DNA from: a virus
DNA: 64,000 nucleotides
IMG/VR virus record: IMGVR_UViG_3300043411_001170
Location: 73,688-137,687 of that record
Strand: one strand, 5' to 3'
Below are positions 835 through 48,877 of this stretch, piece by piece. The notes below the pieces were generated by a model, which did no database searches, was not told the DNA's origin, and saw nothing but the letters and a program-made list of their open reading frames with translations. A program made the translations under genes and the position numbers. Every line of letters begins with the position of its first letter. Positions within the stretch are counted from its first letter, which is position 1.

Positions 835-1491
835 ATGGCTTTTGATATGAGTAAAATGAGTTTAGATGACGGTGCGATGGATGTATATTTTGATCCCAAA
901 AATTATAAAGTAAATGAGAACACAGCAGTATCGGATTTTTTCTATTCAGATCAATTTAAAAATGGCGATAAAGTAAGATATCTAGGAGGCATGGAAGGGA
1001 AGATATTATTAGGTCGTGATGAGCCTCAAGAAGGAGAAGTAGGGGTTATAATGAAAGTAAGAACTTCCTTGGGAAATGTTACACATTTCGCTGGTAAATT
1101 ATTCGTATTTTGGGATTCGATGGATAAAATTGTACCTGTTCCACATGAGTTATTGGAAAATGCAGGTGAAGATATTGACGATGCCGATATGCAGTATGAT
1201 GGCCCAATCTCTATTGGACCTATATCGAAACAAGCGTTTTACTATTCTTCATCTGTAGAAGATCTGAGGAAACATTTTGTTGTTAAAGGCCCAACATCAA
1301 ATCCTGATGAAGCTGAACTCATACATAAGTCGTCTCAAGAATTGTGGAGCCTAGAAAAATCTGGTTCTGGTTTTAAAATCCAAAGATTATTTAATCCGAA
1401 TGGTGCCCCTATCAAAGAATATCAAACAAAAAAGACGGATAAGAAGCAGGCTCCTGGTAAGTCTGCAATCCGCAGAACTAAAAAGAAGTAA
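835..1491 (+). CDS. Hypothetical protein (putative head-associated)
   Basis: ORF 826..1491; ATG at 835 has a GAGGTG SD; SKQAF and HKSSQ motifs; basic C-terminus. Confidence 0.7.
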   Translation: MAFDMSKMSLDDGAMDVYFDPKNYKVNENTAVSDFFYSDQFKNGDKVRYLGGMEGKILLGRDEPQEGEVGVIMKVRTSLGNVTHFAGKLFVFWDSMDKIVPVPHELLENAGEDIDDADMQYDGPISIGPISKQAFYYSSSVEDLRKHFVVKGPTSNPDEAELIHKSSQELWSLEKSGSGFKIQRLFNPNGAPIKEYQTKKTDKKQAPGKSAIRRTKKK

Positions 1492-1568
1492 ATTATTAAA
1501 TAATTTTTAACAAGTAGGTAAATCATTTTTTATGTATTTTCTTTTTAAGCGGGTTAGAGGATCTAAAA

Positions 1569-3062
1569 ATGTCTATAAAGTCAGATCCATTTTTAAATGA
1601 TCTTATTCTTGCATTTGCAAGAAGTGGGATGGCTGATCAAGATACACCTATTCAGAAGACGGCAGGTGAAGTTAGGTTTATTAAGGAAAATGCGAATGAG
1701 ATGGGGTTATGGGCATATGGTAACTCTGCCCCGGCCAACCGTGAATTAACTCCTAAATTCGATTTTCAAGCTAAAAATCTAAAGCCCCTTGTCGAATGTC
1801 TTAAGTACTCTACAGCAGCATTAAGTTATGCTATGGTTGCTTACGATATTTTTACTAAAATCCCAAGTTCATCTGTATCCCCCGATGGCCGCTTAGGTGG
1901 TAAGGGATATATTATGAAAATACAGGATATTAGAAAAAACTTCATGAATATTGTAGAAGCATTGTCTTCTATGAGTGACACTATCTATGATGAGCTTCAA
2001 GCTCCCCATTGGGCAGCACAAACAAGAGAAATGGAGCCTGAATTAAAAGAAGAATTAAATGATGCTCTTGAGGAAACAGAGAAGATTCGGACAGATCCTG
2101 AAAATTGGGCATTGTCTCAGTTTGATTCTCTCGACGCTTCTCCTGCTATCTCTAAATCTGTAGATGGGTCGGATGACAAAATTGACAAGGCTCCATTAGT
2201 TATGGATGTACCTAAACCAGAAATTGTAGATCCAAGAGTAAAGAAAAGACCAGTATCCTCGTTAGATTCCGATACAGAAAATGATTTGAATGAATTGGAC
2301 GCCCTAACCTCTCCCAGCCAGAAGAGTACGAATACTGAAGAATCTGAGTGGGTTGGTGATATGGCGGAAGACATAACCGCACCTATTAAGAGAAATGATG
2401 AAATTAAAGCGATTAAAAAACAAACTCCTAAATTACCTCCTAAGCCAGTAACTCCTCCAGAGACTAAGAAAGAGCCAGAGAAGAAAGAGGTAGTGAAGCC
2501 AGAACCTGTAAAGAAAGAACCTATAAAAAAAGACGTTCCAAAACCTAAACCTGAGAAAAAAGAAGATAAATTAATTGCAAAGAAGCCCCCAGAACTACCA
2601 GAAGAACCTAAAGCTCAAGACACAGTAGAAGACGATGACTGGTTAGAAGACGCTAAAAAACCAGTAAAACCTCCTGTCAAAAAGGGTCCACCAAAGCCAT
2701 CTGCAAGTACCTTTGATGATTTTCTTGAATTAGACACGCCAAAGAAAAAGACGGCTCCTGTTGTACAAGATAATTCAGAAGATGACGACTGGTTGGATGA
2801 TACAACGGATATTAATCCGAAAAAGAACGTGACTATGGATAACCAAGATGAGCAGGATATATTTTCAGAAGAACCAGAGGAACAGCTAAATGAAGATGAC
2901 TGGATTAATTCTGTTCCAGAAGAAGATAAGGAAGTGGAAGATGAAGAAACTGATTGGTTAACTTCTGTCGTTCCAGAACCTCCAAAACCTTCTCCCTCAC
3001 CAACACAAAAGACTGCTGGGAGAAATGATGATTGGAAAAAATACACAACATTAAAATTATAA
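1569..3062 (+). CDS. Hypothetical protein: helical N-domain plus Pro/Lys-rich and acidic DDW-repeat disordered tail (putative internal head protein)
   Basis: 497 aa, GAGG SD; QKTAG near both ends; repeated (E/D)DDW(L/I) motifs. Confidence 0.75.
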   Translation: MSIKSDPFLNDLILAFARSGMADQDTPIQKTAGEVRFIKENANEMGLWAYGNSAPANRELTPKFDFQAKNLKPLVECLKYSTAALSYAMVAYDIFTKIPSSSVSPDGRLGGKGYIMKIQDIRKNFMNIVEALSSMSDTIYDELQAPHWAAQTREMEPELKEELNDALEETEKIRTDPENWALSQFDSLDASPAISKSVDGSDDKIDKAPLVMDVPKPEIVDPRVKKRPVSSLDSDTENDLNELDALTSPSQKSTNTEESEWVGDMAEDITAPIKRNDEIKAIKKQTPKLPPKPVTPPETKKEPEKKEVVKPEPVKKEPIKKDVPKPKPEKKEDKLIAKKPPELPEEPKAQDTVEDDDWLEDAKKPVKPPVKKGPPKPSASTFDDFLELDTPKKKTAPVVQDNSEDDDWLDDTTDINPKKNVTMDNQDEQDIFSEEPEEQLNEDDWINSVPEEDKEVEDEETDWLTSVVPEPPKPSPSPTQKTAGRNDDWKKYTTLKL

Positions 3063-3077
3063 TTATAGAGGAACGAC

Positions 3078-5681
3078 ATGGCTAAAACACCAAAAAACCC
3101 ATATTCATTTGATGGTTTCGATATAGAATCTCTTGAATCTCCTACTCAAGAGAAAGTAGGAAATTTCACATTTAATAGTCCACAACAAACGGATTACCCG
3201 CAATTATATGAGCTAATAGATGACACCGGGGAAAGTCCAAAATTTAACATTGACGAAGCATTTGATGACGGAATAAACCTTAATGCTTTTTTGGAAGAAC
3301 CAAAAGAAACGGTTAATGATTTAAGATGGCTTACTCATCCAGACGTAAAAGAGATACCCACAGAAACTGCCCATATACGAGATGAACTACATCGACAATG
3401 GGTAGATAAAAAACCTTATAAACGTTTAGATTATTCGGAGCACCATAAAGAATCTCCAAAACCTGAGTTGCCTAAGCTTTCTTTAAGAACGGTATTACAA
3501 AAAGCCGTTAGAATGGCATCTGATGGGATTCCTCATAGTGTTATTTATGAATACTTAAATCCTATTTCTTCGATGGATGCCGTTCAAAAAACTATATCTA
3601 TCATAAATCGAGAAAAGGATGTGTTAGGAAGATTGTTCATCAGAGCTAGTGTTTACCCTGGATGCCATAAAGGTGAATGGAAAGATAAAGTAAGGTCGTG
3701 CAATAATTCGGCACGCTATATTATTTCTGCAAAGAAATGCAGGGGTTGCTATCAAAATAGAGGTGGAAGGTGCGACATATTTAAAAAAGAAATTGTTGAT
3801 CTCTTGCCTTGGTCAAAAGCTCTTGCATGGTATCAACCTATATTTGAAGAACATGGAATTAATGCTGTAGGTAATACAGTAGAGGAAAAAGTTATTTCCA
3901 TGTTTAGGGCGGTTCCATCCACGCCAAAAACACCTGAAAATTATTTCCCTGTAGATTACCTTCCTACAGTCCCATTAGAGCAAGCTGTAGATGAAATTGT
4001 TTCTTATAAAGATAAAAGAAAAGTTATAGACATTTCATATAGAAACGAAATGAAGGAATATGAAAATGCAGTAAGTTATTTAGATAACTTAAAAAGATGT
4101 ATGCTTATTACTCCAAAAGACTACGAAAACATTTTGCGTTCAACTGATAGTCCTATTACTATTATGTTGAAAGCCAGAGACGTTTTATTAAAGACCAAGG
4201 AAGTCGGTCTATATAGTGGACCTGGAATGGATGTCTTACTAAATCAATTTGGAGACGTAAGTGAAGAAGAAATGTTAGCGTACCTTGCTAACATTGATAA
4301 TAAGCAAATTATATTAGACAATAGCCATAAAATCATACAAGAGAATAAAAGAAGGGCTGTAGATCAAATTAATAAATGGGTTCAGAATAGAATGCTCACC
4401 CCAGAGCAAGGAAAGTCAATACTTGCATTAGATTTATCACCTACGGATATCATCTTACTAGGAAAAAATACAATACTAAGTAAGGGAGATACTCCTACTT
4501 ATTATGGTTATGGGACGGACAAAGTTATAAATCCCGATAAAGTCGTGTCTTTGGATGACGCTTGGAGGGATATTGCTAATTTCAAGAATACACAGCAAGT
4601 AATTGATCTATCGTATAGAAATAAAGTAAGAGAAGAGTCTGAGATAAAAGAAAATCTACAAAGATGGATGCAGACAGGATTACTTAGTAAATTGGCGTTT
4701 GATTTCCTTTCTGACAATATTGGGAAAAGGCCAAAACATGAGATCCTATCTAAAGCTGCTAAAATTATCCAAGGTAATGTGGTTAAAGTAAGAGATTACC
4801 AAGGTCCAGGTGTTGATCACGAAGTAAAGAAGGTTGCTTCTTCTAAAGAAATTGCTCAAGAATTGAAAAATATGGAAATTCAGAGCAAAAAGGAAGAACA
4901 GAGGTTTTCTAAACTTATACAAGATAGAAAAAGATCTGGTCTGTTAAAATATATCGGGGATATGAAAAATAAAGGCATTTTGAAAGAGGCTTCTGCGGAA
5001 AAACTGTCTCAGTTATGTACGGTCACAAATGATTTAAAGAAAGCTTTTGATTTATCCATGTCTTTAATACGAATGGAAATGAATGGTCCTCATAGACCAG
5101 AAATGAAAGAGATAACAAAAGAAGCTTACGATGGAGAGGGAATAGGTGCAGTTCCTCAATTAGATATGACGTTAGAAGATGCTGTGAATGAAGTTGAATA
5201 TGCCGAAGAACTTCCAGGATTTAGTTTGCCAGAAATAGCTAAGGCGGGAGATAAGATCACCGATTTGATGAATAAAGGCTTATCAGGTAAAGCTCTTGCA
5301 GATGCGATAGGACAAGCAGGTTTAGACCAAATTGTCGATTATGTCCCAATTTTATCTGCAAATTTACAAATGAATGATGGCGTCATAGGTGTTTTATTTT
5401 TAGATCCTGAAATATATTTTACTCAGAATCTAGATGGGTGTAAAGCAGCAGCTAAGAAATTAAAAAAATCACCTGTACAAAATATCTTGGAAAAGCCAAA
5501 ATGCGTTAAGTGTACTCAGAACAGGGGCGATTTTTGTAACGTTTACGGAAGAAAATTGGTTAAACCCGATTTTGAAGAAATTCTGAGATCCCGTAGTAAA
5601 AAATCCCCAGAGAAGCTAGTACCTTATGTGGCTGAATTAGATCCCTCTTTAGTTGATGACTGGAACACTGACTTAGATTAA
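3078..5681 (+). CDS. Large hypothetical protein with two Cys4 domains flanking ~100-aa repeats
   Basis: 867 aa; GC...KCxxCxQNRGxxC occurs twice; YxGxG repeats at 4212, 4500, 4797, 5127; KVAS, KEAS and RMAS motifs. Confidence 0.75.
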   Translation: MAKTPKNPYSFDGFDIESLESPTQEKVGNFTFNSPQQTDYPQLYELIDDTGESPKFNIDEAFDDGINLNAFLEEPKETVNDLRWLTHPDVKEIPTETAHIRDELHRQWVDKKPYKRLDYSEHHKESPKPELPKLSLRTVLQKAVRMASDGIPHSVIYEYLNPISSMDAVQKTISIINREKDVLGRLFIRASVYPGCHKGEWKDKVRSCNNSARYIISAKKCRGCYQNRGGRCDIFKKEIVDLLPWSKALAWYQPIFEEHGINAVGNTVEEKVISMFRAVPSTPKTPENYFPVDYLPTVPLEQAVDEIVSYKDKRKVIDISYRNEMKEYENAVSYLDNLKRCMLITPKDYENILRSTDSPITIMLKARDVLLKTKEVGLYSGPGMDVLLNQFGDVSEEEMLAYLANIDNKQIILDNSHKIIQENKRRAVDQINKWVQNRMLTPEQGKSILALDLSPTDIILLGKNTILSKGDTPTYYGYGTDKVINPDKVVSLDDAWRDIANFKNTQQVIDLSYRNKVREESEIKENLQRWMQTGLLSKLAFDFLSDNIGKRPKHEILSKAAKIIQGNVVKVRDYQGPGVDHEVKKVASSKEIAQELKNMEIQSKKEEQRFSKLIQDRKRSGLLKYIGDMKNKGILKEASAEKLSQLCTVTNDLKKAFDLSMSLIRMEMNGPHRPEMKEITKEAYDGEGIGAVPQLDMTLEDAVNEVEYAEELPGFSLPEIAKAGDKITDLMNKGLSGKALADAIGQAGLDQIVDYVPILSANLQMNDGVIGVLFLDPEIYFTQNLDGCKAAAKKLKKSPVQNILEKPKCVKCTQNRGDFCNVYGRKLVKPDFEEILRSRSKKSPEKLVPYVAELDPSLVDDWNTDLD

Positions 5682-5726
5682 ATTTTACACCTAAATACAC
5701 CTAAATAATTGAGGCTAGTTTTTGAT

Positions 5727-12251: not shown

Positions 12252-12254
12252 AAA

Positions 12255-13001: not shown

Positions 13002-14807
13002 ATGACAGTTTTACCTACAGGAACAGCGGGAGAAAGCAAGGTAGTTGCAACTATTAACGGTATAAGTAAAACTGCCAATACTAATGGTGTAGCTGGATCT
13101 GTTAGGGTAGGGAAGCCTGATAAAATATTAGAATCGAAGATGCATTCTAAATTTGCAACCATAGGAGCAGGTGGAGGAGGAAGTGGTTATGGTGGTATGT
13201 ATGGTGCTGGATTCGGAAATTTATCAGGATCAGTGTCTTGGGGTAATGCAATTAATCCATATAGCCCAGAACTATCTACTGACTTTTTAGAATTACCAAA
13301 CTCTCAGCAAGAATTAAGAAATACTTGTAGATTTTTCTACGATAATGATGCCATTGTCGGACAAGCCATTGACTCCTTAACTGATATACCTCTCTTAAAG
13401 GTAAGAGTAGGGATGCCAGAGGCTTTAAATGTAGAATTAGCGCGCAAAGCTATGAGATTTTGCGAGCGGTGGGTAAGATCCCAAAATTTATTAGAAAAAT
13501 TAATTTGGATATTACACGAAATTAACTTATTCGGTGAAGCTTTTATTTGGGTAGAAGATTCAGATAAAGAACTACCTCAAGATTTACTTTACGAAGAGAT
13601 TGAAGAAATTCGTGAAAACGGTGAAAAAGTAACAATTAGGAATTTAAAGAATAACGCCAACGAGCTTCACGTTTCTTGGTTAAGAAAAAATTATAAGGGA
13701 TGGACTAATCTTACTGTATTACCTCCTCACCAAGTAAGAATGGAATCTTTTCCTTTTACGAGAAGAAGTCAGTTTGAATTTATTCCTGACTCAAAAGCAA
13801 GAAATGTAGTGTCATTAGCTGAAAGCGGAGATACTTATGCCTCCAGAGTAGTTAATGATATGCCGAGAGAAATAGTAGAGTCCATAAGAAGTGGTAGGAA
13901 CATACCTCTCAATACAGACCCTGATGCTGGGTCTTTCTGCTTTTATATGGCAAGAAAAAGAAGTGCCTATGCAGAAAGAGGAAAGTCAATAATCCAAAGA
14001 ATTATTCGTCCTCTTACACATAGAGACAAATTAAGACAGGCTCAAGCATCTATTGCTTCAAGACATATGACTCCTATGCGTGTTATTCAAGCAGAAGGAG
14101 CAAGTGATGCTGACTTAGATGTATTGAGAGAACACGTAGATCATGCTTTGTCTGATCCCGATTTTACAATTATTGTAAACTATGTAATAAATTGGGAGGA
14201 AATGAATTCAAATGGAAGACTCCTAGATTTGGATTCTGAATATACGATGGCAGAAAGGCAGATGTACATTGGTCTGGGTGTTACTGAGTCTTTATTAAAT
14301 GGAGAATCTTCTTATCAAGAAAATAGTCTGTCCACACAATTATTATCTGCTAAATTTATGCATGTTCGGATGATGCTACAACACTTTGTAGAGCAGTATA
14401 TCTTTCGTCCTATGTGTGCTCGTATGGGATTTATTGAAGAAGATGAGGATGGACAAGAACATATTATCACACCAACACTTATGTTTAATCGTATGACTTG
14501 GAGAGATTCTCCTGATACAGCACAACAATTAATCACGTTATTTGAACGTGGTGCAGTAGATATTGACACCATACATGAATATTTCAATCTCGATACTCAA
14601 ACAACGGTAGAGAGAATGAATAATAATATGTATACAATAAAAGATCCGTTCTTAGCTGAAGCATTGAGATCAATGGCATCTTCTATTGGATCTGTCATGG
14701 CCGAAAAGACAAATGCTTTGGATAAATACTCTAAAGCAGCCCTATTGTCTATTCTTGCTGATAGCGTAGATCCACGATTTGCCCCACCACCGGGCGGCGG
14801 TCTATAA
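13002..14807 (+). CDS. Portal protein
   Basis: 601 aa between TerL and protease; portal-like segments 'FFYDNDAIVGQAID', 'EINLFGEAFIW', 'RGKSII', 'GLGVTESLLNGE'. Confidence 0.8.
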   Translation: MTVLPTGTAGESKVVATINGISKTANTNGVAGSVRVGKPDKILESKMHSKFATIGAGGGGSGYGGMYGAGFGNLSGSVSWGNAINPYSPELSTDFLELPNSQQELRNTCRFFYDNDAIVGQAIDSLTDIPLLKVRVGMPEALNVELARKAMRFCERWVRSQNLLEKLIWILHEINLFGEAFIWVEDSDKELPQDLLYEEIEEIRENGEKVTIRNLKNNANELHVSWLRKNYKGWTNLTVLPPHQVRMESFPFTRRSQFEFIPDSKARNVVSLAESGDTYASRVVNDMPREIVESIRSGRNIPLNTDPDAGSFCFYMARKRSAYAERGKSIIQRIIRPLTHRDKLRQAQASIASRHMTPMRVIQAEGASDADLDVLREHVDHALSDPDFTIIVNYVINWEEMNSNGRLLDLDSEYTMAERQMYIGLGVTESLLNGESSYQENSLSTQLLSAKFMHVRMMLQHFVEQYIFRPMCARMGFIEEDEDGQEHIITPTLMFNRMTWRDSPDTAQQLITLFERGAVDIDTIHEYFNLDTQTTVERMNNNMYTIKDPFLAEALRSMASSIGSVMAEKTNALDKYSKAALLSILADSVDPRFAPPPGGGL

Positions 14808-14897: not shown

Positions 14898-16325
14898 ATG
14901 ATTATTAAAAGAGCTAGAGCGAAGGGGTTTTCGCCCGACGTACAAATAAAAAAATGGTCAGGAATCCCAAATGTAAAAACAGCTTCTGTTTCTACGAAGG
15001 ATATTACTAGACAAGCCTCTGAGATTTTAAATGATTACTGTGATCCAGAGAATTATTTATTCTCGCACGTCACTGTAGTCTGTTCTGTAGATACTAATCC
15101 TATGGATGTTCAGATTGGCCCCAATGTCGTAAATGAAGGGCTAGTTATAAATCGTAAGTATAAAGAATACGATATCCAAGCTAACTGTCAGAAATTTATA
15201 AATAATAATAAAGATGCATGGGAACGAGATCTCCTATTACAATGCTATAAAACATTCGTTGGTGCCCATAATTTCTGCGAGCACCTGCAAATTGAAGAAC
15301 AAAGCAAGGGTAAAATCGTAGATGCAGTAGCCAGAGATATCGGTGAAAGTGTTTATGTAGATATTTTAATTGCTACAGCGAAAAAACATACAGAACTTAT
15401 TAAAGCTATCAAAGAAAGAAGAATTAATGCTGTCTCTATGGGATGCTCTGTATTAGAGACACAGTGTACAAAGTGTGGAAATACATCTCCTGATGAAGCC
15501 CATATGTGCCGACACATCACAATGATGAAAGGCCAGAAGTTTGAGGGTCCAGATGGAAAGGAGAGAATGATAGCTGAACTGTGTGGAAATAAGGCTATGG
15601 AGCCACATGGGGGAGTTAGATTTATAGAAGCATCTTGGGTAAAGGTTCCTGCATTTAAGGGTGCAGTTCTTCGTAATATTATAGATCTGTCAGAAATTAA
15701 TGGAGACAGATTAAAGAAAGTAGCATCTGATTTAAAAATGTTGAAAAATCCGACATGGAATCCCGCAGATACTTCTAGAATTGTTAACTCATTAGTTTTG
15801 AATGGTATGATGAAATTAGCAGCAGCAGAGGATGAAGGTTTTTCACCTGCACAAACAGAAATTTCGGATGGTGAAGAAAATCCATTGGAATCATTAGAAA
15901 GAGAAATGATGAAGGTCGTTATTAAGAATGTAAAGTCAAAATTAATGGATGTTTTAAGTCCTCCAAAAGATACAAATTATTCTACTCTCGTCACTCCAAT
16001 GGGGAGTAATAATAATATCGTAAGAGTAGGATCTGAGATAGATGAATTAGAGTCATTGTATAATTCTGGATTATCAGCCATCACAAATTTATGCAAAACA
16101 AATAAATCTAGAATCAGATACTCTAAAATCTACAATGACTATTTCGGAATACATATTCCAAAATGGATTTATGTTGCTTGTAATAAGCTGGGACCGTTAG
16201 TTCGTTATACAAGTCCTATGTCATATATCTCAGTATGCGAAAAAGTATTAAATAGGAGACTATCAATAGATGAAATTGATGCCCTGTTAAAAATATCGTC
16301 TATTCTTCGGGAAGACATCTATTAA
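14898..16325 (+). CDS. Prohead (capsid maturation) protease with inserted Cys/His cluster
   Basis: Follows portal; NNNKDAW...NFCEH...KGKIVDA...VSMG...FIEASWVKVPA matches the assemblin/HK97-type protease layout; CTKC...CRH...C insert. Confidence 0.7.
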   Translation: MIIKRARAKGFSPDVQIKKWSGIPNVKTASVSTKDITRQASEILNDYCDPENYLFSHVTVVCSVDTNPMDVQIGPNVVNEGLVINRKYKEYDIQANCQKFINNNKDAWERDLLLQCYKTFVGAHNFCEHLQIEEQSKGKIVDAVARDIGESVYVDILIATAKKHTELIKAIKERRINAVSMGCSVLETQCTKCGNTSPDEAHMCRHITMMKGQKFEGPDGKERMIAELCGNKAMEPHGGVRFIEASWVKVPAFKGAVLRNIIDLSEINGDRLKKVASDLKMLKNPTWNPADTSRIVNSLVLNGMMKLAAAEDEGFSPAQTEISDGEENPLESLEREMMKVVIKNVKSKLMDVLSPPKDTNYSTLVTPMGSNNNIVRVGSEIDELESLYNSGLSAITNLCKTNKSRIRYSKIYNDYFGIHIPKWIYVACNKLGPLVRYTSPMSYISVCEKVLNRRLSIDEIDALLKISSILREDIY

Positions 16326-17984: not shown

Positions 17985-18671
17985 ATGCCAGCACCAGGAA
18001 ATGCAAGTGGTAACTTCACCGAAGGCTCATCTGCCCTTCGCGTTCTCTATAAGGGAACAATCAATACTGCAAGTGCAACTTTAAGCACAGATGGTTTTAC
18101 ACAAACAAATCCTCCAGTCGTAACAACTACTTCCACCATCTCCCAAGCTGCGATGATGAATCGTAATCGTCTTGGTGTATTGGGTGGTTCGGTTTGCTTT
18201 GCTCGTCCTGATGCAGGAAACGGCTTAGTAGGCGGTCCAAAAGAAGGTGCATCTCCTGTGTATCTTCGTTCGGGTATCGTCCCCCTTGGTCTTTTCGTGA
18301 ATGATGCAGTAGGCGTTCCCTACGAAAACCGTCCTGCGGTTGCATCAGGTCAAGCACCCTATACCTCTTCGATGGGTACATACGGTTCTCGTTTATACGA
18401 GACTCAAGTACTCGATGCAACAAACGTAGCTGGTCACTCAACTGGTGACGCTATTGTTTATGTTGCTGGTGTAGGCTTGATTGCTTCTCGTAACGGTTAT
18501 TTGATGCCTCGTTTGATTCCAAACGGTGCCAACATGACCTCTCTCGACCAAGTTGAAACTGCTGCACAGTCTGCAAATCTTGCTGCTGCAAACAGTTCAA
18601 CTGTGATCGGTATCCTCAAACTTGTTGCTGACTCTGCATTTGCAGAAATCCTCTTGGACCAACGTATCTAA
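17985..18671 (+). CDS. Capsid decoration/cement protein
   Basis: 228 aa directly upstream of MCP; 'PLGLFVNDAVG..YEN..AVASG..PY' decoration-like pattern; same high-expression codon bias as MCP. Confidence 0.65.
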   Translation: MPAPGNASGNFTEGSSALRVLYKGTINTASATLSTDGFTQTNPPVVTTTSTISQAAMMNRNRLGVLGGSVCFARPDAGNGLVGGPKEGASPVYLRSGIVPLGLFVNDAVGVPYENRPAVASGQAPYTSSMGTYGSRLYETQVLDATNVAGHSTGDAIVYVAGVGLIASRNGYLMPRLIPNGANMTSLDQVETAAQSANLAAANSSTVIGILKLVADSAFAEILLDQRI

Positions 18672-18748
18672 TTAATTGTGATTAGAACATTTAACCAAGT
18701 AAACTAGTTATAAAGCAACTTAAAGAGATATAAGAGGTAAATATAGTC

Positions 18749-31047: not shown

Positions 31048-31059
31048 GAGGGATTGTCT

Positions 31060-37058: not shown

Positions 37059-38537
37059 ATGACAGACAAATTCGCAAAAAGAAAAGAAACAGTGGACAGT
37101 GCTAGATATGAAAAAGATATCAGTGCAAGAGACTCTTACAGTAAAGAACAACTAGCTCTTTTTAGAGAACTTTATCCTATATTTAAAATTTCTAGTAAAA
37201 GCGTAGTAAATATTAAAAATGATAAAGAAAAAGTTAAAATATTAAAAGAAGTATTAGTCACAGAATCTGAGGTCACAGATTTTCTTGAATCTTATCCAGA
37301 AACTAATAGAGATAGCTTGCTGAAACTAGGTGTAGCTGTAGCATTGGGGAAAAATATAGCTAAAGTTGAGTCTCTTGCTATATCTGTTTTCAACGATATC
37401 TACGTAACAAAAGAAATCTCTTCTGATACTCAGCAGCTAAAAAATAAACTTCCTGAACAAGTATTGGAGTTTTTACCAGATAAAATAACAATAAAAACAG
37501 ATCCAGATGGCGTCATTAACGAGATAACAAATAGATTTCAAGAACAGTATGAAACTATTGGAAAGAAAATAGATCTTCAGAAGAAGATCTTATCTAAATA
37601 CAACGACATCTCAGCTAAAATTAAAAAAGACCTCAATAGTGAAGATGAACAGACGAAATTAGCTGCTCTCATAATGGCTATTATTATGGAGACTGGAATT
37701 AGACCAGGAAAACCAGGAACGTCTTCAAAAAAGAAGAGTAAAGATGGTACGTCCATTGATACTTTTGGTGCTACCACTTTAACACCTGATCACATTTCTT
37801 TTTTGAAAGATAGTGAAGTGGAGTTAACATTTCCAGGTAAAAGTGGAACGATTAATGTAGCATCTATTCAAAATAAAGATTTGATTACTATCTTAAAAAG
37901 ATATGTGGAACATACACAAAGTTTAATTACAGGAGAAGAAGGATCTGCCCCGAGATCTGTGTTTACAACAAGTGATGGAAAAACTCTTTCTCAAGATTTC
38001 TTAAGACGTTATGTAAAAAAACTCGGTGTACAGGGACTACGTCCTACAGATTTTAGAAAATTGAGATCTACACAGGCTGTTCTTAATAGTCTAAATTCTC
38101 AACTAGAGGGTTTATATAATAGAATCTCTCAAGCAATTAGTAATCAGACTGAAAATCTCAAAGAAAGAATCGTGGAAGAAGTAATGTCTACTGTAAAACA
38201 GGCATATAAACATGCCGAAAAAACATTATCACATGATAATGTGAGAACAACTATCGACCATTATGTCAATCCAAGCTTATTGTTAAATTTCCTCAGTACA
38301 GGAAAAGTAGCAGACAATCTTAAATCTGCCATCGTAGACAGTAAAACTGTTCTCAGCTTTGATCCAGAAGTATTTGTACAACAGGCTATGGCTAGAAAAT
38401 CTGCTCAACCAGATCTTGTAAAAACATCTTCGGACGGAAATAAGCGGATGATTTCTATTCTTTATAAACTTGCAAAATTAGCAAGTTCTACGAAGAAATT
38501 AATTAATTCTTCAGATCATTATTCCTTCAGGTTTTAA
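37059..38537 (+). CDS. DNA topoisomerase IB (poxvirus/bacterial type)
   Basis: Catalytic pentad in order: ETGIRPG (R), TFGATTL..DH, LTFPGKSG (K), RPTDFRK (R), LSHD (H)...HYVNP (Y). Confidence 0.85.
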   Translation: MTDKFAKRKETVDSARYEKDISARDSYSKEQLALFRELYPIFKISSKSVVNIKNDKEKVKILKEVLVTESEVTDFLESYPETNRDSLLKLGVAVALGKNIAKVESLAISVFNDIYVTKEISSDTQQLKNKLPEQVLEFLPDKITIKTDPDGVINEITNRFQEQYETIGKKIDLQKKILSKYNDISAKIKKDLNSEDEQTKLAALIMAIIMETGIRPGKPGTSSKKKSKDGTSIDTFGATTLTPDHISFLKDSEVELTFPGKSGTINVASIQNKDLITILKRYVEHTQSLITGEEGSAPRSVFTTSDGKTLSQDFLRRYVKKLGVQGLRPTDFRKLRSTQAVLNSLNSQLEGLYNRISQAISNQTENLKERIVEEVMSTVKQAYKHAEKTLSHDNVRTTIDHYVNPSLLLNFLSTGKVADNLKSAIVDSKTVLSFDPEVFVQQAMARKSAQPDLVKTSSDGNKRMISILYKLAKLASSTKKLINSSDHYSFRF

Positions 38538-38556: not shown

Positions 38557-39270
38557 ATGTTACCAGAAAAATATATTCCAATAACTGATATCAAAAACTG
38601 GATATTTAATATTAACCCGGCATATTACTACATGCCATTTTTCACTGGGTTCTTAATTATAAAACCAAATAAAGGAAGTGAGCTATGTGAATTATTATTT
38701 TATCCGAAAAGAGGATTATTATTAAGTTTTGGAAGATACATAACAGCAAACCATTGTGCAAGAATGGCTGCTAAATGGTGTTTACAGACGGATCAAAATA
38801 GATTTTTACCGTCATCCACTGATGAAACAGAAGATGCGAAGAAAAAGCGTAGAGAAAAAAGAAAAAGAAAGAAAATAGACTTGACTGAGAGTATAGAACC
38901 TAGAGATGAATACTCTGTATTAGGTCCAGAGACACCAGCAGAAAATTCGGCCCCCATACCTAAAATGGCATCTTCTGGTGCTCAAAGCGGTACTTTAGCC
39001 ATATTTGAGGAAATGAGGCATGGTGTAGAAAAGAAAATGATTTTTCATGAGTCAAAGACGAGTTATATTCTCATATATAGAAAAATACGAGACGAAATTC
39101 AAGTAGTTATTTCTAAATTAGAGGGAGAGGGAAATCCTAAATTGGCTACAGGAACATACACAGGTAGTCCTGTATTTGTTGTTTCTATTTTAAAGGATAT
39201 GCCGAAAGTACTGGAGACTATTTCATATAGTTATTTTAGACTTCCTGTAAAAACGATTTGGAACAGCTAG
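38557..39270 (+). CDS. Hypothetical protein
   Basis: 237 aa; RMAA and KMAS motifs; basic patch. Confidence 0.6.
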   Translation: MLPEKYIPITDIKNWIFNINPAYYYMPFFTGFLIIKPNKGSELCELLFYPKRGLLLSFGRYITANHCARMAAKWCLQTDQNRFLPSSTDETEDAKKKRREKRKRKKIDLTESIEPRDEYSVLGPETPAENSAPIPKMASSGAQSGTLAIFEEMRHGVEKKMIFHESKTSYILIYRKIRDEIQVVISKLEGEGNPKLATGTYTGSPVFVVSILKDMPKVLETISYSYFRLPVKTIWNS

Positions 39271-44398: not shown

Positions 44399-44420
44399 GC
44401 ATAAAATTAGATTGTTATTT

Positions 44421-44454
44421 AATAAAGGCTCCTTTCGAGGGGCTTTTATTTTTT
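44421..44454 (+). terminator. Intrinsic terminator after actin gene
   Basis: AATAAAGGCTCCT-TTCG-AGGGGCTTTTATT plus T run; UUCG loop. Confidence 0.85.
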
Positions 44455-44468
44455 ATAGGTAACTAAAA

Positions 44469-45671: not shown

Positions 45672-45681
45672 AGGTTTAGAC

Positions 45682-46119: not shown

Positions 46120-46128
46120 GGTATTAAA

Positions 46129-46986
46129 ATGTTTTATCGAACTCCCTATATAAAAAGGAAAGGTTTAAAAGGAAGAGGTACTTCTGTATATCTTCCTTTT
46201 GCTGCGGATATGGTATGGAAGCATACAAAAAACTATAAGGGAGGGATGAATATTGCTCGACGTAACAGTGATGGAAAAGAATTTCTTATAAAGGATCTAA
46301 AGAAAAATGGTCGATATTTGCCGTTAGCTAATAATTATAGAAAACAATTTAAATTAAAATGGGATAAATTAACGGCTTTACAGAAATCTTCGGAAATAAG
46401 TAGAATTGTTCCTAGAGTGACTAATAGAAAGATGAAAGTGCTAGTGATGAGATATGCTAGAAATCTTCTACAGAAAAATCTGAAGTCTCCATATAGGAAA
46501 ATGGAAAATAAATACAAGACTTTTAAGGTAAACCCCTATTCCTATAAATCTTCTTTTTCTCGTAATCCTTTTAAAAAGTGGTCATCTGCTATCAAAAAAG
46601 AAGCAATAGACTTGATGAGTAAGATTGCAGTTACTTTAGAGGATAGATTAAAAACACGTCGAAGATTAAATAAAGAATCTTTTTCTATGGTCAATGCAGA
46701 AGAAATAGCATGGGAAAATACAGATGATGAGGGTGGCGGATTAAATGATCTTTTGAATCCTTACACGAAAGAAAAAGTAGAATATCGTTACTATGTTTCG
46801 GATAAAGGAAAATTTAATAATAAAGTCTTATCAGAGAGGAAAAAGTTCTATAATCATATTTCTGATTTAGACAATACTGCTAAGATAAAATTTTTTACAA
46901 AAATATTAAGTGATATTTCTGATTCTAAAGAAAAAAAGATAGTTAAGGATTATATTAATACGCTAAAGACTTCAGATGAGGGCTGA
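46129..46986 (+). CDS. Highly basic hypothetical protein (putative DNA-binding internal head protein)
   Basis: K/R-rich 285 aa; KKEAIDLMSKIA motif. Confidence 0.6.
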   Translation: MFYRTPYIKRKGLKGRGTSVYLPFAADMVWKHTKNYKGGMNIARRNSDGKEFLIKDLKKNGRYLPLANNYRKQFKLKWDKLTALQKSSEISRIVPRVTNRKMKVLVMRYARNLLQKNLKSPYRKMENKYKTFKVNPYSYKSSFSRNPFKKWSSAIKKEAIDLMSKIAVTLEDRLKTRRRLNKESFSMVNAEEIAWENTDDEGGGLNDLLNPYTKEKVEYRYYVSDKGKFNNKVLSERKKFYNHISDLDNTAKIKFFTKILSDISDSKEKKIVKDYINTLKTSDEG

Positions 46987-46987
46987 T

Positions 46988-48877
46988 ATGCAATTAAAAA
47001 GAGTTTTGGAAATAATTAAGATGGCTAGTAGTGATCCTTTTTCGAGTGCCCCTGCATTAAAGAAATTTTTATCCATCTTTTTACGAAAATGGAATAAGAA
47101 ATTCACTCAAATACCATTTGATGTTGGTGAAGAAGTACTATGGAGATATTACGATAAAAAATGGGGGGGACAAACAACTGTAAAAACAAATGACGGGAAA
47201 GAAGTTCCCCTAGCTAACATATTGGCTGATTTCGATGCTTTTACTTCCCCTAATTACCCATTAAAAGACAAACTACGAGAAGCAGTAACTGCAAAAAAAC
47301 AATTTCATACCTTATTGGCCGCAACCCCATTAGACGGAAAAATCAAACTGGCCGAGTACACCATAAGCAAGACAAAAAGTCCTGTTATAGATAGTTTATT
47401 GAAGGAAGCTATTGAATCTTGGAAATCTGGTATGGCATATATAGATGAAGAACCTCAAGAACAGGAAGGAGGTTTGGAAATACCTCAACCAGATGAGTCT
47501 ATTCCACCAGGAGAAGAAAATTTATCGGGTGATGATGTTTTGAGAGAAATAGAGAATAAAGGAAAAGACCAGCTAGATACTGTTCAAAAAGCACAAGAAA
47601 AAGATAAAACAACGCGGCCAGAAGCTACTCAAGATGCAACAACACCACCCACAGAAGAAGCTTTAACTCCAGAACAAGAAAATTTACAGAAGAAATTTCC
47701 TGGAGAAGAGACAGCTAAGACCAATAAGTCTTTTAGAGAAAAATTGTCGGGTGTATTTAAAGGTATCAAATCAATACCTGCAAAAATAAAGAAAGAAGTA
47801 TTAAATGCACCTAAAACAATGGTTCAATTTCTAACTGATCCTAAATTTAGGCAAGCACAATATAGTAAAGCCGCTGCTGCTATTAAGACTATGCCTGAAC
47901 GTGCTTTTAAAGGAATTGCAAAAGGCATGGATTCATTGGTTACTAATATTGTAGCAAGTGCTAAAAATGAATTTGTTAATATGGGGAAACTTTATAAATT
48001 CCCTTCAAAGATGGCAAATAAATGGAGAACTAAAAGAGATCAAATTAGGGAACAGGAAGGGAGAGAACCGTCAGCATGGGAATTAGTCAAAGAAACAATC
48101 CCTAAATTAAGAAAAACCGATCCAGAAACAGGGAAAAAGGTATGGGATGATGACGGTATCGACGATTGGATGCTCTTATTGGGAACAGGCGGATATGTAG
48201 CAACTGCTGCTCTGACATTTGGTGCTAATGCTGTAGGTGGTCCAATAGGACAAGCGTTACTTGCAACTGGAACTGCTGTTGGAAAAAGCTTGGCAACCCA
48301 CATTGCACTAAACGCTGTCGGTGATTTTGCTGGTGATATGATTAAGCAGACTATGGGTGCTAGTGCTGATTTGCTTAAATGGTTAGCATCAGGAGGAAAG
48401 AAATTAAAAGAGTACTTTGTTAAAAAATCTCCTGATACTGCATTTATGGGAACAGAGTGGGTTGAATGGTGGGGAAGTGTTGGTGCAGCAGCAGCTAAGG
48501 GAGATGCTGGTGCTGCTGCTTCAGAAAATGCAATATTTGAAACGTTTAGAACAAGCGACTTCTTTGATAAGACATCAGCTTATTTATCTGAAGTATTTGC
48601 AACAACTGGAAACTTTGTTGAGATGGTCGGTTCTAAAATAATTACTTCATCGGTTGATGACTATCAACTTTCTGGCACTGCCAATAATATAATTAAAGGT
48701 GTCCAAAAGAGTTTGGTAGCTAAACTGGAGAAAGGTGTCACAACAGAAGAATTAAAATTTTCCCTCACATTTGACTCTGATAAGTACGGACCTTCTCCAG
48801 AACCCGTGCCAAGTCAGAAAACAGCAAAATATTTGGTAGATCGTCGGTCTATTGATATGACGAAATTTAGGTTTTAA
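46988..48877 (+). CDS. Hypothetical protein with hydrophobic Gly/Ala helices (putative ejection protein)
   Basis: ORF 46976..48877, ATG at 46988 after GAGG; IKMAS at N-terminus, QKTAK at C-terminus; 'WMLLLGTGGYVATAALTFGANAVGG...'. Confidence 0.6.
   Translation: MQLKRVLEIIKMASSDPFSSAPALKKFLSIFLRKWNKKFTQIPFDVGEEVLWRYYDKKWGGQTTVKTNDGKEVPLANILADFDAFTSPNYPLKDKLREAVTAKKQFHTLLAATPLDGKIKLAEYTISKTKSPVIDSLLKEAIESWKSGMAYIDEEPQEQEGGLEIPQPDESIPPGEENLSGDDVLREIENKGKDQLDTVQKAQEKDKTTRPEATQDATTPPTEEALTPEQENLQKKFPGEETAKTNKSFREKLSGVFKGIKSIPAKIKKEVLNAPKTMVQFLTDPKFRQAQYSKAAAAIKTMPERAFKGIAKGMDSLVTNIVASAKNEFVNMGKLYKFPSKMANKWRTKRDQIREQEGREPSAWELVKETIPKLRKTDPETGKKVWDDDGIDDWMLLLGTGGYVATAALTFGANAVGGPIGQALLATGTAVGKSLATHIALNAVGDFAGDMIKQTMGASADLLKWLASGGKKLKEYFVKKSPDTAFMGTEWVEWWGSVGAAAAKGDAGAAASENAIFETFRTSDFFDKTSAYLSEVFATTGNFVEMVGSKIITSSVDDYQLSGTANNIIKGVQKSLVAKLEKGVTTEELKFSLTFDSDKYGPSPEPVPSQKTAKYLVDRRSIDMTKFRF

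What the first reader, a model, noticed from the sequence alone, without database searches (positions are those of the whole stretch)
835..48877. Window-wide K-x-A-[S/G] motif marks a candidate set of protease-matured, head-packaged proteins
Seen: the scaffold has VKIAS, VKKAS (x2), SKEAS, NKKAS, SKKAS and NKSAS; the protease has VKTAS, KKVAS and MKLAA; the portal N-terminus has SKTAN and SKFAT. The same motif recurs in unknown proteins: 1569 (QKTAG near both ends), 3078 (RMAS, KVAS, KEAS), 30319 (KFAT, KVAS), 31060 (KKTAKKIA), 31459 (KKAA, KQAA), 37059 (KTSS, KLAS), 38557 (KMAS) and 46988 (KMAS, KTAK). By eye it is scarce in the sheath, tube, fibres and GH25. Established: T4 gp21 and phiKZ gp175 prohead proteases cleave many internal head proteins at short Glu-ending motifs. 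Inference: this phage uses a different, Ala-P1 code (KxA|S), and the motif reads out an unknown virion cargo of about a dozen proteins.
Basis: partly seen in the sequence, partly recalled or inferred. Interest (0 to 1): 0.82.

Follow-up and report, generated by a model that had tools for sequence, protein, structure and literature searches.

The report
Lys-x-Ala-Ser head-protease cleavage code
The head scaffold of this uncultured large phage and its herpesvirus-like head protease carry a short Lys-x-Ala-Ser signal that most likely marks where the protease cuts. The same signal flags a few other probable head proteins, but no cut has been measured.

Summary
By count alone, K-x-A-S is significant only in the scaffold 16407-17648 (7 vs 0.20 expected) and the protease 14898-16325 (2 vs 0.18). 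The loose motif is not enriched in the rest of the window: 9 vs about 6.3, inside the range of order-permuted controls.

The signal is nevertheless real and family-wide. In 62 relatives' scaffolds [KR]-x-A-[SG] occurs 377 times vs 69 expected. It is depleted in capsid, decoration and portal proteins. The sites flank an assemblin/gp21-fold catalytic domain in disordered linkers.

A refined form, hydrophobic-x-K-x-A-S, is enriched window-wide outside scaffold and protease: 7 vs 1.69, p=0.001. Conservation supports the sites in 1569-3062, 46976-48877 and the topoisomerase-IB protein 37059-38537. Support is weaker for 3078-5681, 31459-32748 and the portal. 30319-30963 is inconclusive, 38557-39270 has no homologue in five relatives, and 31054-31446 was not tested.

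The most likely reading is a herpesvirus-like Ala|Ser cleavage code of the prohead protease. No cleavage has been shown, and head packaging of the extra proteins is inferred. The scan has noted this code before on other phage-G-like DNA. I found no paper describing it.

The parts
16407..17648 (+). Scaffold protein, 413 aa, 37% Asp+Glu. It has seven K-x-A-S sites with K at aa 48, 54, 209, 261, 286, 337 and 371 (nt 16548-16559, 16566-16577, 17031-17042, 17187-17198, 17262-17273, 17415-17426, 17517-17528).
   Evidence: K.AS 7 vs 0.20 expected, or 0.33 by local shuffle. It lies between the protease and the decoration/capsid genes. No family hit. Its C-terminal 44 aa match relatives' scaffolds. The last site is 40 aa from the C-terminus; in relatives the last site is 20-46 aa from the end in 61 of 62.
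14898..16325 (+). Prohead protease, 475 aa. Catalytic domain about aa 45-266. Motifs: KTAS 27-30 (nt 14976-14987), RQAS 38-41 (15009-15020), KVAS 274-277 (15717-15728), KLAA 306-309 (15813-15824).
   Evidence: phrog_18299 head maturation protease, E 1.8e-10. AF2 core pLDDT about 87-97, with residues 1-32 and 278-326 below 50. VIA-align Z 11.2 to VZV protease and 9.8 to T4 gp21 over residues 49-266. W20 and A40 are invariant; R24 and A296 are at least 90% conserved in 48 homologues.
1569..3062 (+). Conserved head-block protein, 497 aa. Helical core about aa 62-190, flanked by QKTAG at aa 29-33 (K at nt 1656) and aa 480-484 (K at nt 3009).
   Evidence: [KR]-T-A-G-E-V-R is near-invariant in 22 of 23 aligned homologues, behind N-extensions that vary widely in length (none to several hundred residues). 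The C-terminal QKTA[GS] is kept in 3 of 4 close relatives; the fourth has QKAAS. In five large relatives the N-flank site is kept in 4 of 5 and a C-flank [KR]-x-A-S in 4 of 5. Family count is 172 vs 47.5. Both sites lie in predicted disorder. The gene sits next to the 3078 homologue, upstream of the portal, in 5 of 5 relatives.
3078..5681 (+). Cys-rich conserved head-block protein, 867 aa, with KVAS 585 (nt 4830-4841), KEAS 636 (4983-4994) and RMAS 145.
   Evidence: Own count is 2 vs 0.28. Family of 150 representatives: [KR].A[SG] 757 vs 235, median 5 vs 1.57, and 83 of 150 have 5 or more. Its own sites are weak: KKVAS is kept only in P0195, KEAS is not kept, and RMAS aligns to a conserved RRSA helix.
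37059..38537 (+). Topoisomerase-IB-like protein, 492 aa, with Y-K-L-A-K-L-A-S at aa 469-476 (KLAS nt 38475-38486), 16 aa before a C-terminus ending FRF.
   Evidence: Pfam Topoisom_I, 44.9 bits (cut-off 23.7). In relatives the topo domain sits in proteins of 331-1384 aa, next to the head genes, bracketed by R-[VI]-A-[SA]-[RK]-[YFW]. The window's C-terminal site lines up by eye with NYKDAALRVASRW.
46976..48877 (+). Unknown protein, 633 aa. N-terminal I-I-K-M-A-S at aa 13-18 (KMAS nt 47018-47029). C-terminal Q-K-T-A-K at aa 614-618 (nt 48818-48829). Ends FRF.
   Evidence: [KR]-[ML]-A-[SN] is kept in 5 of 6 sequences (the sixth lacks the N-terminus). In one homologue the M is L, so this M is not simply a start codon. 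The C-terminal QK[TLV]A[KRN] is kept in 6 of 6.
13002..14807 (+). Portal, 601 aa. N-terminal K-F-A-T at aa 50-53 (nt 13149-13160) is a possible site. SKTAN at aa 22-26 is not conserved.
   Evidence: phrog_16240, E 3.6e-25. K-x-A sits in the same alignment column in 3 of 5 large relatives (KVAF, KVAF, KMAY). Phage G portal has RKMAS shortly before the conserved FYxP block (placement by eye).
31459..32748 (+). SWIM-like zinc-finger protein, 429 aa. KQAA at aa 216-219 (nt 32104-32115) lies at the junction of a variable N-part and a conserved C-domain.
   Evidence: It aligns with KEAS in LR745208. Two relatives end in RVASRY and one in VVSRY. Weak.
30319..30963 (+). Conserved structural-block protein, 214 aa. 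M-S-K-V-A-S at aa 148-153 (KVAS nt 30766-30777).
   Evidence: It fits the refined motif, but the site lies in a variable linker and is not positionally conserved. Inconclusive.
38557..39270 (+). Unknown protein, 237 aa. I-P-K-M-A-S at aa 134-139 (KMAS nt 38962-38973).
   Evidence: It fits the refined motif. No homologue in 5 relatives. Untested.
17985..19630 (+). Decoration-like protein (17985-18671) and major capsid protein (18749-19630). These are motif-poor negative controls.
   Evidence: Window: 0 K.AS in each. Families: 3 vs 9 and 2 vs 14 for [KR].A[SG]. The capsid families' invariant KLAAS reads KVAQS here, inside a highly conserved N-arm, so it says nothing about cleavage.

Best explanation
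K-x-A-S, more fully (hydrophobic)-x-[K/R]-x-A-[S > G/N/A], is the recognition and cleavage signal of this phage's prohead protease, an enzyme with the herpesvirus-assemblin / T4-gp21 fold.

Shown: the motif's distribution, its conservation and the protease fold.

Inferred:
1. The protease trims itself at sites in the disordered linkers before (aa 27-41) and after (aa 274-309) its catalytic domain.
2. It cuts the acidic scaffold at seven sites. If the cut is after Ala, the pieces are about 50, 6, 155, 52, 25, 51, 34 and 40 aa.
3. The last cut detaches the conserved 40-aa C-terminal tail, like the herpesvirus maturational site, so the fragments can leave the prohead.
4. The same signal near the ends of a few other proteins marks short N- or C-terminal peptides, or long variable extensions, that are removed during head maturation. 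These proteins are 1569-3062, 46976-48877 and the topoisomerase-IB protein 37059-38537. Outside the window they are a 2747-aa protein, a 1635-aa protein and an acidic scaffold-like protein.
5. The scissile bond (Ala|Ser) is assigned only by analogy with herpesvirus proteases.
For: 1. Scaffold K.AS 7 vs 0.20 and protease 2 vs 0.18; the local-shuffle test agrees.

2. The signal is family-wide. 81 loci yielded 78 scaffolds, 62 of them unique. K.AS is 178 vs 20 expected. [KR].A[SG] is 377 vs 64 by global shuffle and 69 by 15-aa local shuffle (maximum 91 of 200). It is the top of 12 order permutations.

3. The signal is specific. Protease cluster 127 vs 35; decoration 3 vs 9; capsid 2 vs 14; portal 0 vs 3.

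4. Each position is selected in three unrelated families. In scaffolds P1' is Ser 7.5x, P1 is Ala 5.4x, and P3 is Arg 6.1x, Lys 4.8x, His 3.9x.

5. Position. 36 of 62 scaffolds have a site in the first 35 aa (shuffled mean 4.0, maximum 9). The last site is 20-46 aa from the C-terminus in 61 of 62. In the protease alignment the consensus is W..VRTA near the N-terminus (S follows in many members) and KAA after the catalytic domain. Both lie in regions with pLDDT below 50.

6. Fold. The top 36 VIA-align entries are all herpesvirus proteases or T4 gp21 (Z 11.2-7.5, residues 49-266). PrV assemblin's sites are given as YLQA-T and VQA-S, the latter removing 37 C-terminal residues that bind the capsid protein (PMC4498786, passages).

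7. Glu-ending motifs are not enriched here: [LI].E 4 vs 8.6, [SAG].E 12 vs 18, A.E[SAG] 0 vs 1.6.

8. Outside scaffold and protease, hydrophobic-x-K-x-A-S is 7 vs 1.69 in the window (p=0.001) and 13 vs 4.07 in the genome. K.A[SG] sites lie within 30 aa of a protein end 14 of 36 times vs 6.6 expected (p=0.0014).

9. Conserved flanking sites in the 1569, 46976 and topo-IB families.

10. The scaffold's KIASLVKKAS recurs as KIASLVKQAS at the N-terminus of the 2747-aa protein. An acidic scaffold paralogue carries K-M-A-S near its N-terminus and NKSAS 10 aa from its C-terminus.

11. Cultured relatives show it too. Tunturi_5 gp332 has 4 vs 0.4 and its 'DNA ejection protein' gp328 has 5 vs 0.54. Phage G protease gp19 has 2 vs 0.18.
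Against: - No cleavage has been observed in this phage or any relative. I found no N-terminal or semi-tryptic data.
- The catalytic residues were not assigned. There is no Pfam protease hit and no sequence-level PDB match to any protease.
- The relatives are related sequences, so family counts are not independent events.
- In the window alone, the loose motif outside scaffold and protease is at chance, and the end-bias is not significant (4 of 16 vs 2.5, p=0.23).
- Only 3 of the 7 scaffold sites have a hydrophobic residue two before the Lys.
- About 1.7 of the 7 refined-motif hits are expected by chance. One is in the terminase ATPase domain and is probably meaningless.
- Phage G's putative scaffold gp21 has none.
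- [LI].E is mildly over-represented in relatives' scaffolds (353 vs 297).
- The capsid protein has no clear site.
Confidence: 0.7

Rival explanations
1. The motif is a docking or targeting signal, not a cut site. It would bind the protease, the portal or the inner capsid surface to recruit proteins into the prohead and would stay uncleaved.
For: - The protease and the scaffold share a longer N-terminal element: W-x-x-[IV]-P-N-V-K-x-A-S here and W..VRTA(S)-like elements in relatives' proteases and scaffolds.
- Two proteins share a tail of K-x-A-x plus 15-16 aa ending FRF.
- Terminal placement fits targeting peptides as well as propeptides.
Against: - Seven copies spread through an acidic, probably disordered scaffold, with sites exactly at the two borders of the catalytic domain, fit cutting better than docking.
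- Targeting and cleavage are usually combined, as in the T4 capsid-targeting sequences (recalled).
Confidence: 0.12
2. The sites are cut, but by another protease: a host enzyme or another phage peptidase such as the C39-like (genome 45774-46286) or metallopeptidase-like (genome 67070-67654) genes.
For: The genome encodes other peptidase-like domains. No experiment links the motif to the prohead protease.
Against: - The motif co-occurs family-wide with this protease and is built into the protease itself at its domain borders, even in phage G gp19.
- C39 peptidases cut after Gly-Gly (recalled), which does not fit.
Confidence: 0.08
3. The motif is a basophilic Ser phosphorylation site ([K/R]-x-x-S) that regulates scaffold function.
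For: K at -3 from Ser, and the frequent K-K-A-S, resemble kinase consensus sites (recalled).
Against: - Ala at -1 is as strongly selected as Ser (5.4x).
- The best-conserved site of the 1569 family has Gly, not Ser.
- N, G and A substitute for S.
- No protein kinase domain was found in 124 proteins scanned.
Confidence: 0.03
4. It is chance, composition or internal-repeat artefact: K-, A- and S-rich patches or duplicated scaffold segments produce the pattern with no function.
For: - Three scaffold sites look alike ([NS]K[KS]ASQ), suggesting duplication.
- The loose motif is at chance elsewhere in the window.
Against: - Local 15-aa shuffles and order permutations fail to reproduce it.
- The same motif is enriched in three unrelated protein families and depleted in capsid proteins.
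- Positions are conserved while the flanks diverge.
Confidence: 0.03

Closest known systems
Herpesvirus assemblin (pUL26 / UL80a protease-scaffold precursor; release and maturational sites)
   Same: - Same protease fold: Z 11.2 to VZV protease and 10.6 to PrV pUL26N over residues 49-266.
- Small Ala-type residue before Ser. PrV sites are YLQA-T and VQA-S (PMC4498786, passages). The consensus (V/L/I)-x-A|S and the HCMV site YVKA|S are recalled.
- One site lies at the C-terminal border of the protease domain (KVAS 274-277), like an R-site.
- One site lies 40 aa before the scaffold C-terminus, like the M-site, which removes 37 aa in PrV.
   Different: - Protease and scaffold are separate genes here.
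- A basic residue at P3 is required.
- There are seven sites rather than one or two in the scaffold.
- There is an extra N-terminal site on the protease.
- There is no sequence-level similarity.
- The catalytic triad was not assigned.
Phage T4 prohead core: gp21 protease, gp22 scaffold, internal proteins with N-terminal capsid-targeting sequences
   Same: - Related fold: Z 9.8, 126 residues aligned.
- A scaffold chopped at many sites.
- Short N-terminal peptides on cargo proteins. Here M-x(7-9)-K-M-A-S appears on three proteins.
- A self-processing protease.
   Different: - T4 cuts after Glu in L/I-x-E (recalled). That motif is not enriched here: 4 vs 8.6.
- No Pfam or profile match to gp21.
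phiKZ gp175 / SPN3US gp245 prohead proteases of giant phages
   Same: - A giant-phage head in which many proteins, including ejected ones, are matured at a short motif.
- Multiple motif copies in propeptides (PMC10052503, passages).
   Different: - Their motif ends in Glu: S/A/G-x-E or A-x-E (recalled).
- That form is not enriched here: 12 vs 18 and 0 vs 1.6.
- It is a different phage lineage.
Cultured relatives: Bacillus phage G gp19 and Tunturiibacter phage Tunturi_5 gp331 proteases with their head modules
   Same: - Homologous proteases: 34% identity over 35% of the query and 36% over 55%.
- The same gene order: protease, scaffold-like protein, decoration protein, capsid protein.
- The same motif on gp19, on Tunturi_5 gp332 and gp328, and RKMAS in the phage G portal.
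   Different: - Much larger genomes (498 and 309 kb).
- Phage G's putative scaffold gp21 lacks the motif.
- No processing data in the texts I read.

Membership tests
Assemblin/gp21-fold prohead serine proteases (structural superfamily) | Shared catalytic-domain fold | tested here: met
   AF2 model core pLDDT about 87-97. VIA-align Z 11.2 (rmsd 2.5, 113 aa) to VZV protease and 9.8 (rmsd 2.6, 126 aa) to T4 gp21. The top 36 entries all belong to this superfamily, and the next unrelated entry scores Z 6.7. Foldseek alone is weak: best E 9.7e-3.
Assemblin/gp21-fold prohead serine proteases (structural superfamily) | Catalytic Ser/His residues in the right places | not tested
   Invariant His57, His129, Ser136, Ser180 and Ser246 exist. 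I could not superpose coordinates to assign them.
Assemblin/gp21-fold prohead serine proteases (structural superfamily) | Gene sits in the head module next to portal, scaffold and capsid genes | tested here: met
   Order is portal 13002, protease 14898, scaffold 16407, decoration-like 17985, capsid 18749. The protease, scaffold and decoration order holds in 78 of 81 loci, and the capsid gene was found in 72.
Herpesvirus assemblin, MEROPS S21 / Pfam Peptidase_S21 | Sequence-profile membership | tested here: not met
   0 Pfam families at E<=0.01 for the protease. A profile of 48 homologues hits no protease among PDB sequences.
Herpesvirus assemblin, MEROPS S21 / Pfam Peptidase_S21 | Cleavage at (V/L/I)-x-Ala|Ser | not testable with these tools
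   The motif x-A-S is enriched and well placed. No cleavage data exist.
Herpesvirus assemblin, MEROPS S21 / Pfam Peptidase_S21 | Protease fused in frame to the scaffold, with R- and M-sites | tested here: not met
   These are separate ORFs with an 81-nt gap. The protease does carry a 200-aa C-terminal extension after KVAS/KLAA.
T4 gp21 family (MEROPS S77) | Glu at P1 (L/I-x-E) | tested here: not met
   By enrichment only. [LI].E is 4 vs 8.6 in the scaffold and 8 vs 5.2 in the protease. A.E[SAG] is 0 in both.
T4 gp21 family (MEROPS S77) | Sequence-profile membership | tested here: not met
   No Pfam hit. PHROGs gives only phrog_18299 'head maturation protease' (E 1.8e-10) and unnamed families.
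Phage scaffolding protein (functional class) | Gene between protease and capsid, acidic and probably disordered, with a conserved C-terminal tail | tested here: met
   Position. 37% Asp+Glu. No fold family. Only the C-terminal residues 363-406 match relatives.
Type IB topoisomerase (37059-38537) | Pfam Topoisom_I above the gathering score | tested here: met
   44.9 bits vs 23.7, residues 173-392. Catalytic residues were not checked.

The most novel reading that the evidence does not exclude
A very large clade of big and huge phages has kept or re-evolved the herpesvirus-type Ala|Ser specificity, with an added basic P3. The clade has more than 1196 protease homologues and includes cultured phage G and Tunturi_5. 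It uses this specificity as a general address-and-cut code. The code would release scaffold fragments and also mature a packaged, probably ejected, cargo. That cargo would include a eukaryotic-type topoisomerase IB, multi-kilodalton giant proteins, and domains excised from polyproteins at R-V-A-S-R-Y joints. If so, the virion cargo of uncultured megaphages could be read from sequence alone.
Probability: 0.35. Interest if true: 0.78.

Novelty: new variant of a known kind. Interest (0 to 1): 0.6.

Why it matters
Prohead proteases with known specificity in large phages (T4, phiKZ, SPN3US) cut after Glu. A basic-x-Ala|Ser code in a lineage with more than a thousand known proteases would be a second, herpesvirus-like rule. 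It would also tighten the evolutionary link between phage and herpesvirus capsid maturation.

In practice it offers a sequence-only way to predict which proteins of uncultured huge phages are processed in the head and perhaps injected. Here the candidates are a topoisomerase IB, two giant proteins and several conserved unknowns. The rule can be tested directly in the cultured relatives phage G and Tunturi_5.

Tried and rejected
- A single-protein scan of IMG/VR found no close relative. The profile scan worked.
- The loose window-wide enrichment is rejected. There are 9 vs about 6.3 K.AS outside scaffold and protease, inside the permuted-control range of 3-14.
- The capsid protein site is rejected as evidence. 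KLAAS in relatives reads KVAQS here and lies in a highly conserved N-arm.
- I considered that N-terminal K-M-A-S reflects mis-called start codons.
  - This is rejected for the 2747-aa protein, which has AAGAGG 5 nt before its first ATG.
  - It is rejected for 46976, whose extension is conserved and has Leu in place of Met in one homologue.
  - The 260-aa protein probably starts at Met20, which still leaves K-M-A-S at positions 9-12.
- A sequence search of PDB with the protease profile gave only weak unrelated hits.
- RMAS in 3078 aligns to a conserved RRSA helix. SKTAN in the portal is not conserved.
- The AF2 model of 1569-3062 has mean pLDDT 52, with only a helical core (62-190) confident. 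I made no fold search on it.
- No complex prediction was run. An enzyme-substrate pair was judged not worth the job.
- Two look-ups of earlier notes by place found nothing for this genome.
- Literature searches and passages read in PMC10052503, PMC11924767, PMC5646251, bioRxiv 10.1101/2024.12.16.628780 and PMC5512222 gave no report of a K-x-A-S rule for a phage. Their supplementary tables were not seen. The phage G proteomics tables may hold relevant peptides.

Full report
**What the window is.** The window is the last 64 kb of a single 137,687-bp phage contig, with GC 33-40%. It carries:
- a head block: terminase 10443-12251, portal 13002-14807, protease 14898-16325, an acidic scaffold 16407-17648, a decoration-like protein 17985-18671 and an HK97-type capsid protein 18749-19630;
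- a GH25 lysin at 8366-9106;
- a topoisomerase-IB-like gene at 37059-38537;
- a volactin-family actin at 43379-44398;
- a 1868-aa protein with a sub-threshold sheath match.

The nearest public relative of the protease is an uncultured 485-kb phage, LR745208.1, at 35% identity. More distant relatives are Tunturi_5, Bacillus phage G gp19 and cluster-C-like actinophages. The protease family is very large: 1196 proteins at E<=1e-10 among the 8000 candidates scored.

**Checking the observation.** Against 2000 composition shuffles for each of 57 proteins:

| Protein | K.AS observed | Expected | p |
|---|---|---|---|
| Scaffold 16407-17648 | 7 | 0.20 | <0.0005 |
| Protease 14898-16325 | 2 | 0.18 | 0.015 |
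| 3078-5681 | 2 | 0.28 | 0.03 |
| Every other protein | 0 or 1 | | |

Outside scaffold and protease the window holds 9 K.AS vs about 6.3 expected. Eleven order-permuted patterns of the same residues give 3-14. So the loose motif is not window-wide. The tail block has 0 vs 1.61, which is not significant. GH25 has two K-x-A-G, so it is not motif-poor.

**Is the scaffold and protease signal functional?** I took 81 loci: 80 IMG/VR loci, the best 80 of 475 confirmed, plus LR745208. I located the ORF between the protease and the decoration gene in 78 of them. That gave 62 unique scaffolds; 3 loci lacked a decoration hit.

Counts in the 62 scaffolds:
- K.AS: 178 vs 20 expected.
- [KR].A[SG]: 377 vs 64 by global shuffle and 69 by 15-aa local shuffle (maximum 91 in 200 shuffles). 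It is the top of 12 order permutations.

Clustering all ORFs of these loci shows the motif is specific:

| Cluster | Observed | Expected |
|---|---|---|
| Scaffolds | 306 | 56 |
| Proteases | 127 | 35 |
| Decoration | 3 | 9 |
| Capsid | 2 | 14 |
| Portal | 0 | 3 |

A position-by-position test shows each position is selected: Ser 7.5x after [KR].A, Ala 5.4x before [SG], and Arg, Lys and His at 6.1x, 4.8x and 3.9x at the first position. Two unrelated families show the same core. These sequences are related, so the counts are not independent events. Several sites per protein and conserved placement still argue for selection:
- 36 of 62 scaffolds have a site in the first 35 residues (shuffled mean 4.0, maximum 9).
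- The last site lies 20-46 residues from the C-terminus in 61 of 62. It is 40 residues in the window.

**The protease.** I aligned 48 homologues, chosen down the list of 120 shown and leaving out the intein-bearing ones. The consensus shows W..VRTA near the N-terminus (Ser follows in many members), QAS with A40 invariant, and KAA after the catalytic domain (A296 at least 90% conserved). The AF2 model has a confident core (about 45-266). Residues 1-32 and 278-326 are disordered, and these hold the window's KTAS, KVAS and KLAA.

Foldseek alone gives weak matches, led by T4 gp21 and herpesvirus proteases. VIA-align gives Z 11.2 to VZV protease, 10.6 to PrV and 9.8 to T4 gp21 over residues 49-266. 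All top 36 entries belong to that superfamily, and the next unrelated entry scores 6.7. There is no sequence-level match, and I did not assign the catalytic residues.

Glu-ending motifs of the T4 and phiKZ kind are not enriched in the window's scaffold or protease.

The layout parallels the herpesvirus release and maturational sites. One site sits at the C-terminal border of the protease domain. Another sits a few tens of residues before the scaffold's conserved C-terminal tail. For PrV these are given as YLQA-T and VQA-S, the latter removing 37 residues that bind the capsid protein (PMC4498786, passages).

**The window-wide claim, revisited.** Earlier notes of this scan on other phage-G-like genomes describe a hydrophobic-x-K-x-A form of the motif. 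I tested that as a prior hypothesis. Outside scaffold and protease:

| Pattern | Observed | Expected |
|---|---|---|
| [VILMF].K.AS, window | 7 | 1.69 (p=0.001) |
| Non-hydrophobic form, window | 2 | 4.58 |
| Five order-permuted controls | 0-2 | |

Genome-wide the refined motif is 13 vs 4.07. The seven window hits are 3078-5681 (two), terminase (probably chance), 30319, 37059, 38557 and 46976. 1569-3062 adds I-Q-K-T-A-G.

Genome-wide, K.A[SG] sites lie within 30 residues of a protein end 14 of 36 times vs 6.6 expected (p=0.0014). Permuted controls give 26 vs 23. In the window alone this is 4 of 16 vs 2.5, which is not significant.

**Conservation tests of single candidates.**

*1569-3062.* Of 69 homologues, 22 were aligned with the window protein.
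- [KR]-T-A-G-E-V-R is near-invariant, behind N-terminal extensions that vary widely in length (none to several hundred residues).
- Many homologues have a second [KR]-T-A-[SAG] right after the about 150-aa helical core.
- The window's C-terminal QKTAG is kept as QKTA[GS] in 3 of 4 close relatives; the fourth has QKAAS.
- In five large relatives the N-flank is kept in 4 of 5 and a C-flank site in 4 of 5.
- The family count is 172 vs 47.5.
- Both sites are in predicted disorder.
- This gene and 3078-5681 are adjacent, upstream of the portal, in 5 of 5 relatives.

*3078-5681.* Its family is strikingly motif-rich. The 150 listed representatives, of 384 hits, total 757 vs 235, with a median of 5 vs 1.57. 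The window member's own sites are poorly conserved.

*46976-48877.* The N-terminal [KR]-[ML]-A-[SN] and the C-terminal QK[TLV]A[KRN] are conserved in its 5 homologues.

*Topoisomerase IB, 37059-38537.* In relatives the domain lies in proteins of up to 1384 aa beside the head genes, bracketed by R-[VI]-A-[SA]-[RK]-[YFW]. The window's C-terminal YKLAKLAS lines up with that element by eye.

*Others.*
- 31459-32748: KQAA aligns with KEAS in LR745208 at a variable/conserved junction.
- Portal: K-F-A-T aligns with K-[VM]-A-[FY] in 3 of 5 relatives, and phage G has RKMAS nearby.
- 30319: inconclusive.
- 38557: no homologue in 5 relatives.
- 31054: not tested.

**Outside the window.** Several proteins elsewhere in the genome carry the signal near an end:
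- A 2747-aa protein (genome 31818-40061) starts MLDKNQINKMAS. It carries VKKAS, and KIASLVKQAS that matches the scaffold's KIASLVKKAS. A Shine-Dalgarno-like AAGAGG precedes its first ATG.
- A 1635-aa protein has L-T-K-E-A-S at residue 26.
- A 260-aa acidic protein (genome 20475-21257) resembles the scaffold (E 2e-4). It has K-M-A-S near its N-terminus and NKSAS 10 residues from its C-terminus.

**Cultured relatives.** Tunturi_5 gp332 has 4 vs 0.4 and its annotated 'DNA ejection protein' gp328 has 5 vs 0.54. Phage G protease gp19 has 2 vs 0.18. Phage G's putative scaffold gp21 has none.

**Explanation and rivals.** The best reading (0.7) is that the motif is the cleavage signal of the prohead protease. 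I place the cut between Ala and Ser only by analogy; I put that detail at about 0.5. The rivals are:
- a docking signal that is not cut (0.12);
- cutting by another protease (0.08);
- phosphorylation (0.03). This is disfavoured by the selected Ala, by Gly at the best-conserved site, and by the absence of a kinase domain;
- artefact (0.03).

**What is known.** I found no paper describing this rule. I read passages in five papers and saw no supplements. The T4 (L/I-x-E) and phiKZ (S/A/G-x-E) motifs and the herpesvirus consensus are recalled from memory, apart from the PrV sites cited above. The scan itself has noted the same code on at least eight other genomes. I tested its refined form here and it holds.

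**Verdict.** This is a real, family-wide, probably proteolytic code. It is strongly marked in the scaffold and protease. It is plausibly extended to about five to seven other window proteins rather than the dozen listed. It remains unproven experimentally.

Noticed in passing
window 43379-44398 (+): A phage-encoded actin-family protein with a full-length match to Pfam Volactin (PF25216): E 7.2e-67, 226.6 bits vs cut-off 35. I recall this family as archaeal. Its role in a 35%-GC phage is unknown.
   Followed up: no
window 37059-38537 (+); relatives L019, L020, L035, L063 and others: A eukaryotic/poxvirus-type topoisomerase IB. In relatives the domain is embedded in proteins of up to 1384 aa next to the portal and protease, bracketed by R-V-A-[SA]-R-Y joints. 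This suggests a virion-carried enzyme.
   Followed up: partly
P0002, P0003 (close relatives of the protease 14898-16325): The two closest protease homologues (99% and 84% identity) are about 150 aa longer and carry Hint/intein Pfam domains. So an intein interrupts the protease in sister phages but not here.
   Followed up: no
window 14898-16325, aa 190-229: Four invariant cysteines (C190, C193, C204, C229) in the 48-sequence alignment suggest a zinc-binding insertion in the protease catalytic domain.
   Followed up: no
window 37059-38537 and 46976-48877, C-termini: Both proteins end in ...FRF, 15-16 residues after a K-x-A-x site. No other protein of the genome ends this way. This may be a shared C-terminal targeting tail.
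   Followed up: partly
window 34045-34719, 34966-35991 and 49015-54621: Two Ala-rich paralogues share QTRYLKRAS[TS]VW at residues 43-54. Both cluster with the 1868-aa sheath-like protein.
   Followed up: no
genome C1:20475-21257 (outside the window): An acidic scaffold-like paralogue with DEDEDF[YW]A repeats, K-M-A-S near its N-terminus and NKSAS 10 aa from its C-terminus.
   Followed up: partly
genome C1:31818-44995 (outside the window): Two adjacent giant ORFs (2747 and 1635 aa) with no Pfam domain. The first has four K-x-A-S sites in its first 81 residues.
   Followed up: partly
genome C1:1-73687 (outside the window): The left half encodes an IF-1/eIF-1A-like factor, a Cpn60-like chaperonin fragment, HU, ThyX, RecA, a RecD-like helicase, a clamp-loader subunit, a TnpB/IS605 OrfB gene and an LRR protein.
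   Followed up: no
window 16407-17648, aa 75-156: Besides K-x-A-S, the acidic core of the scaffold has aromatic or hydrophobic x-A-[SG] sites (LMAS, FFAS, MFAG, RCAS), each followed by DD[ED]. In all there are 11 Ala-Ser dipeptides in the protein. These may be secondary cut sites.
   Followed up: no
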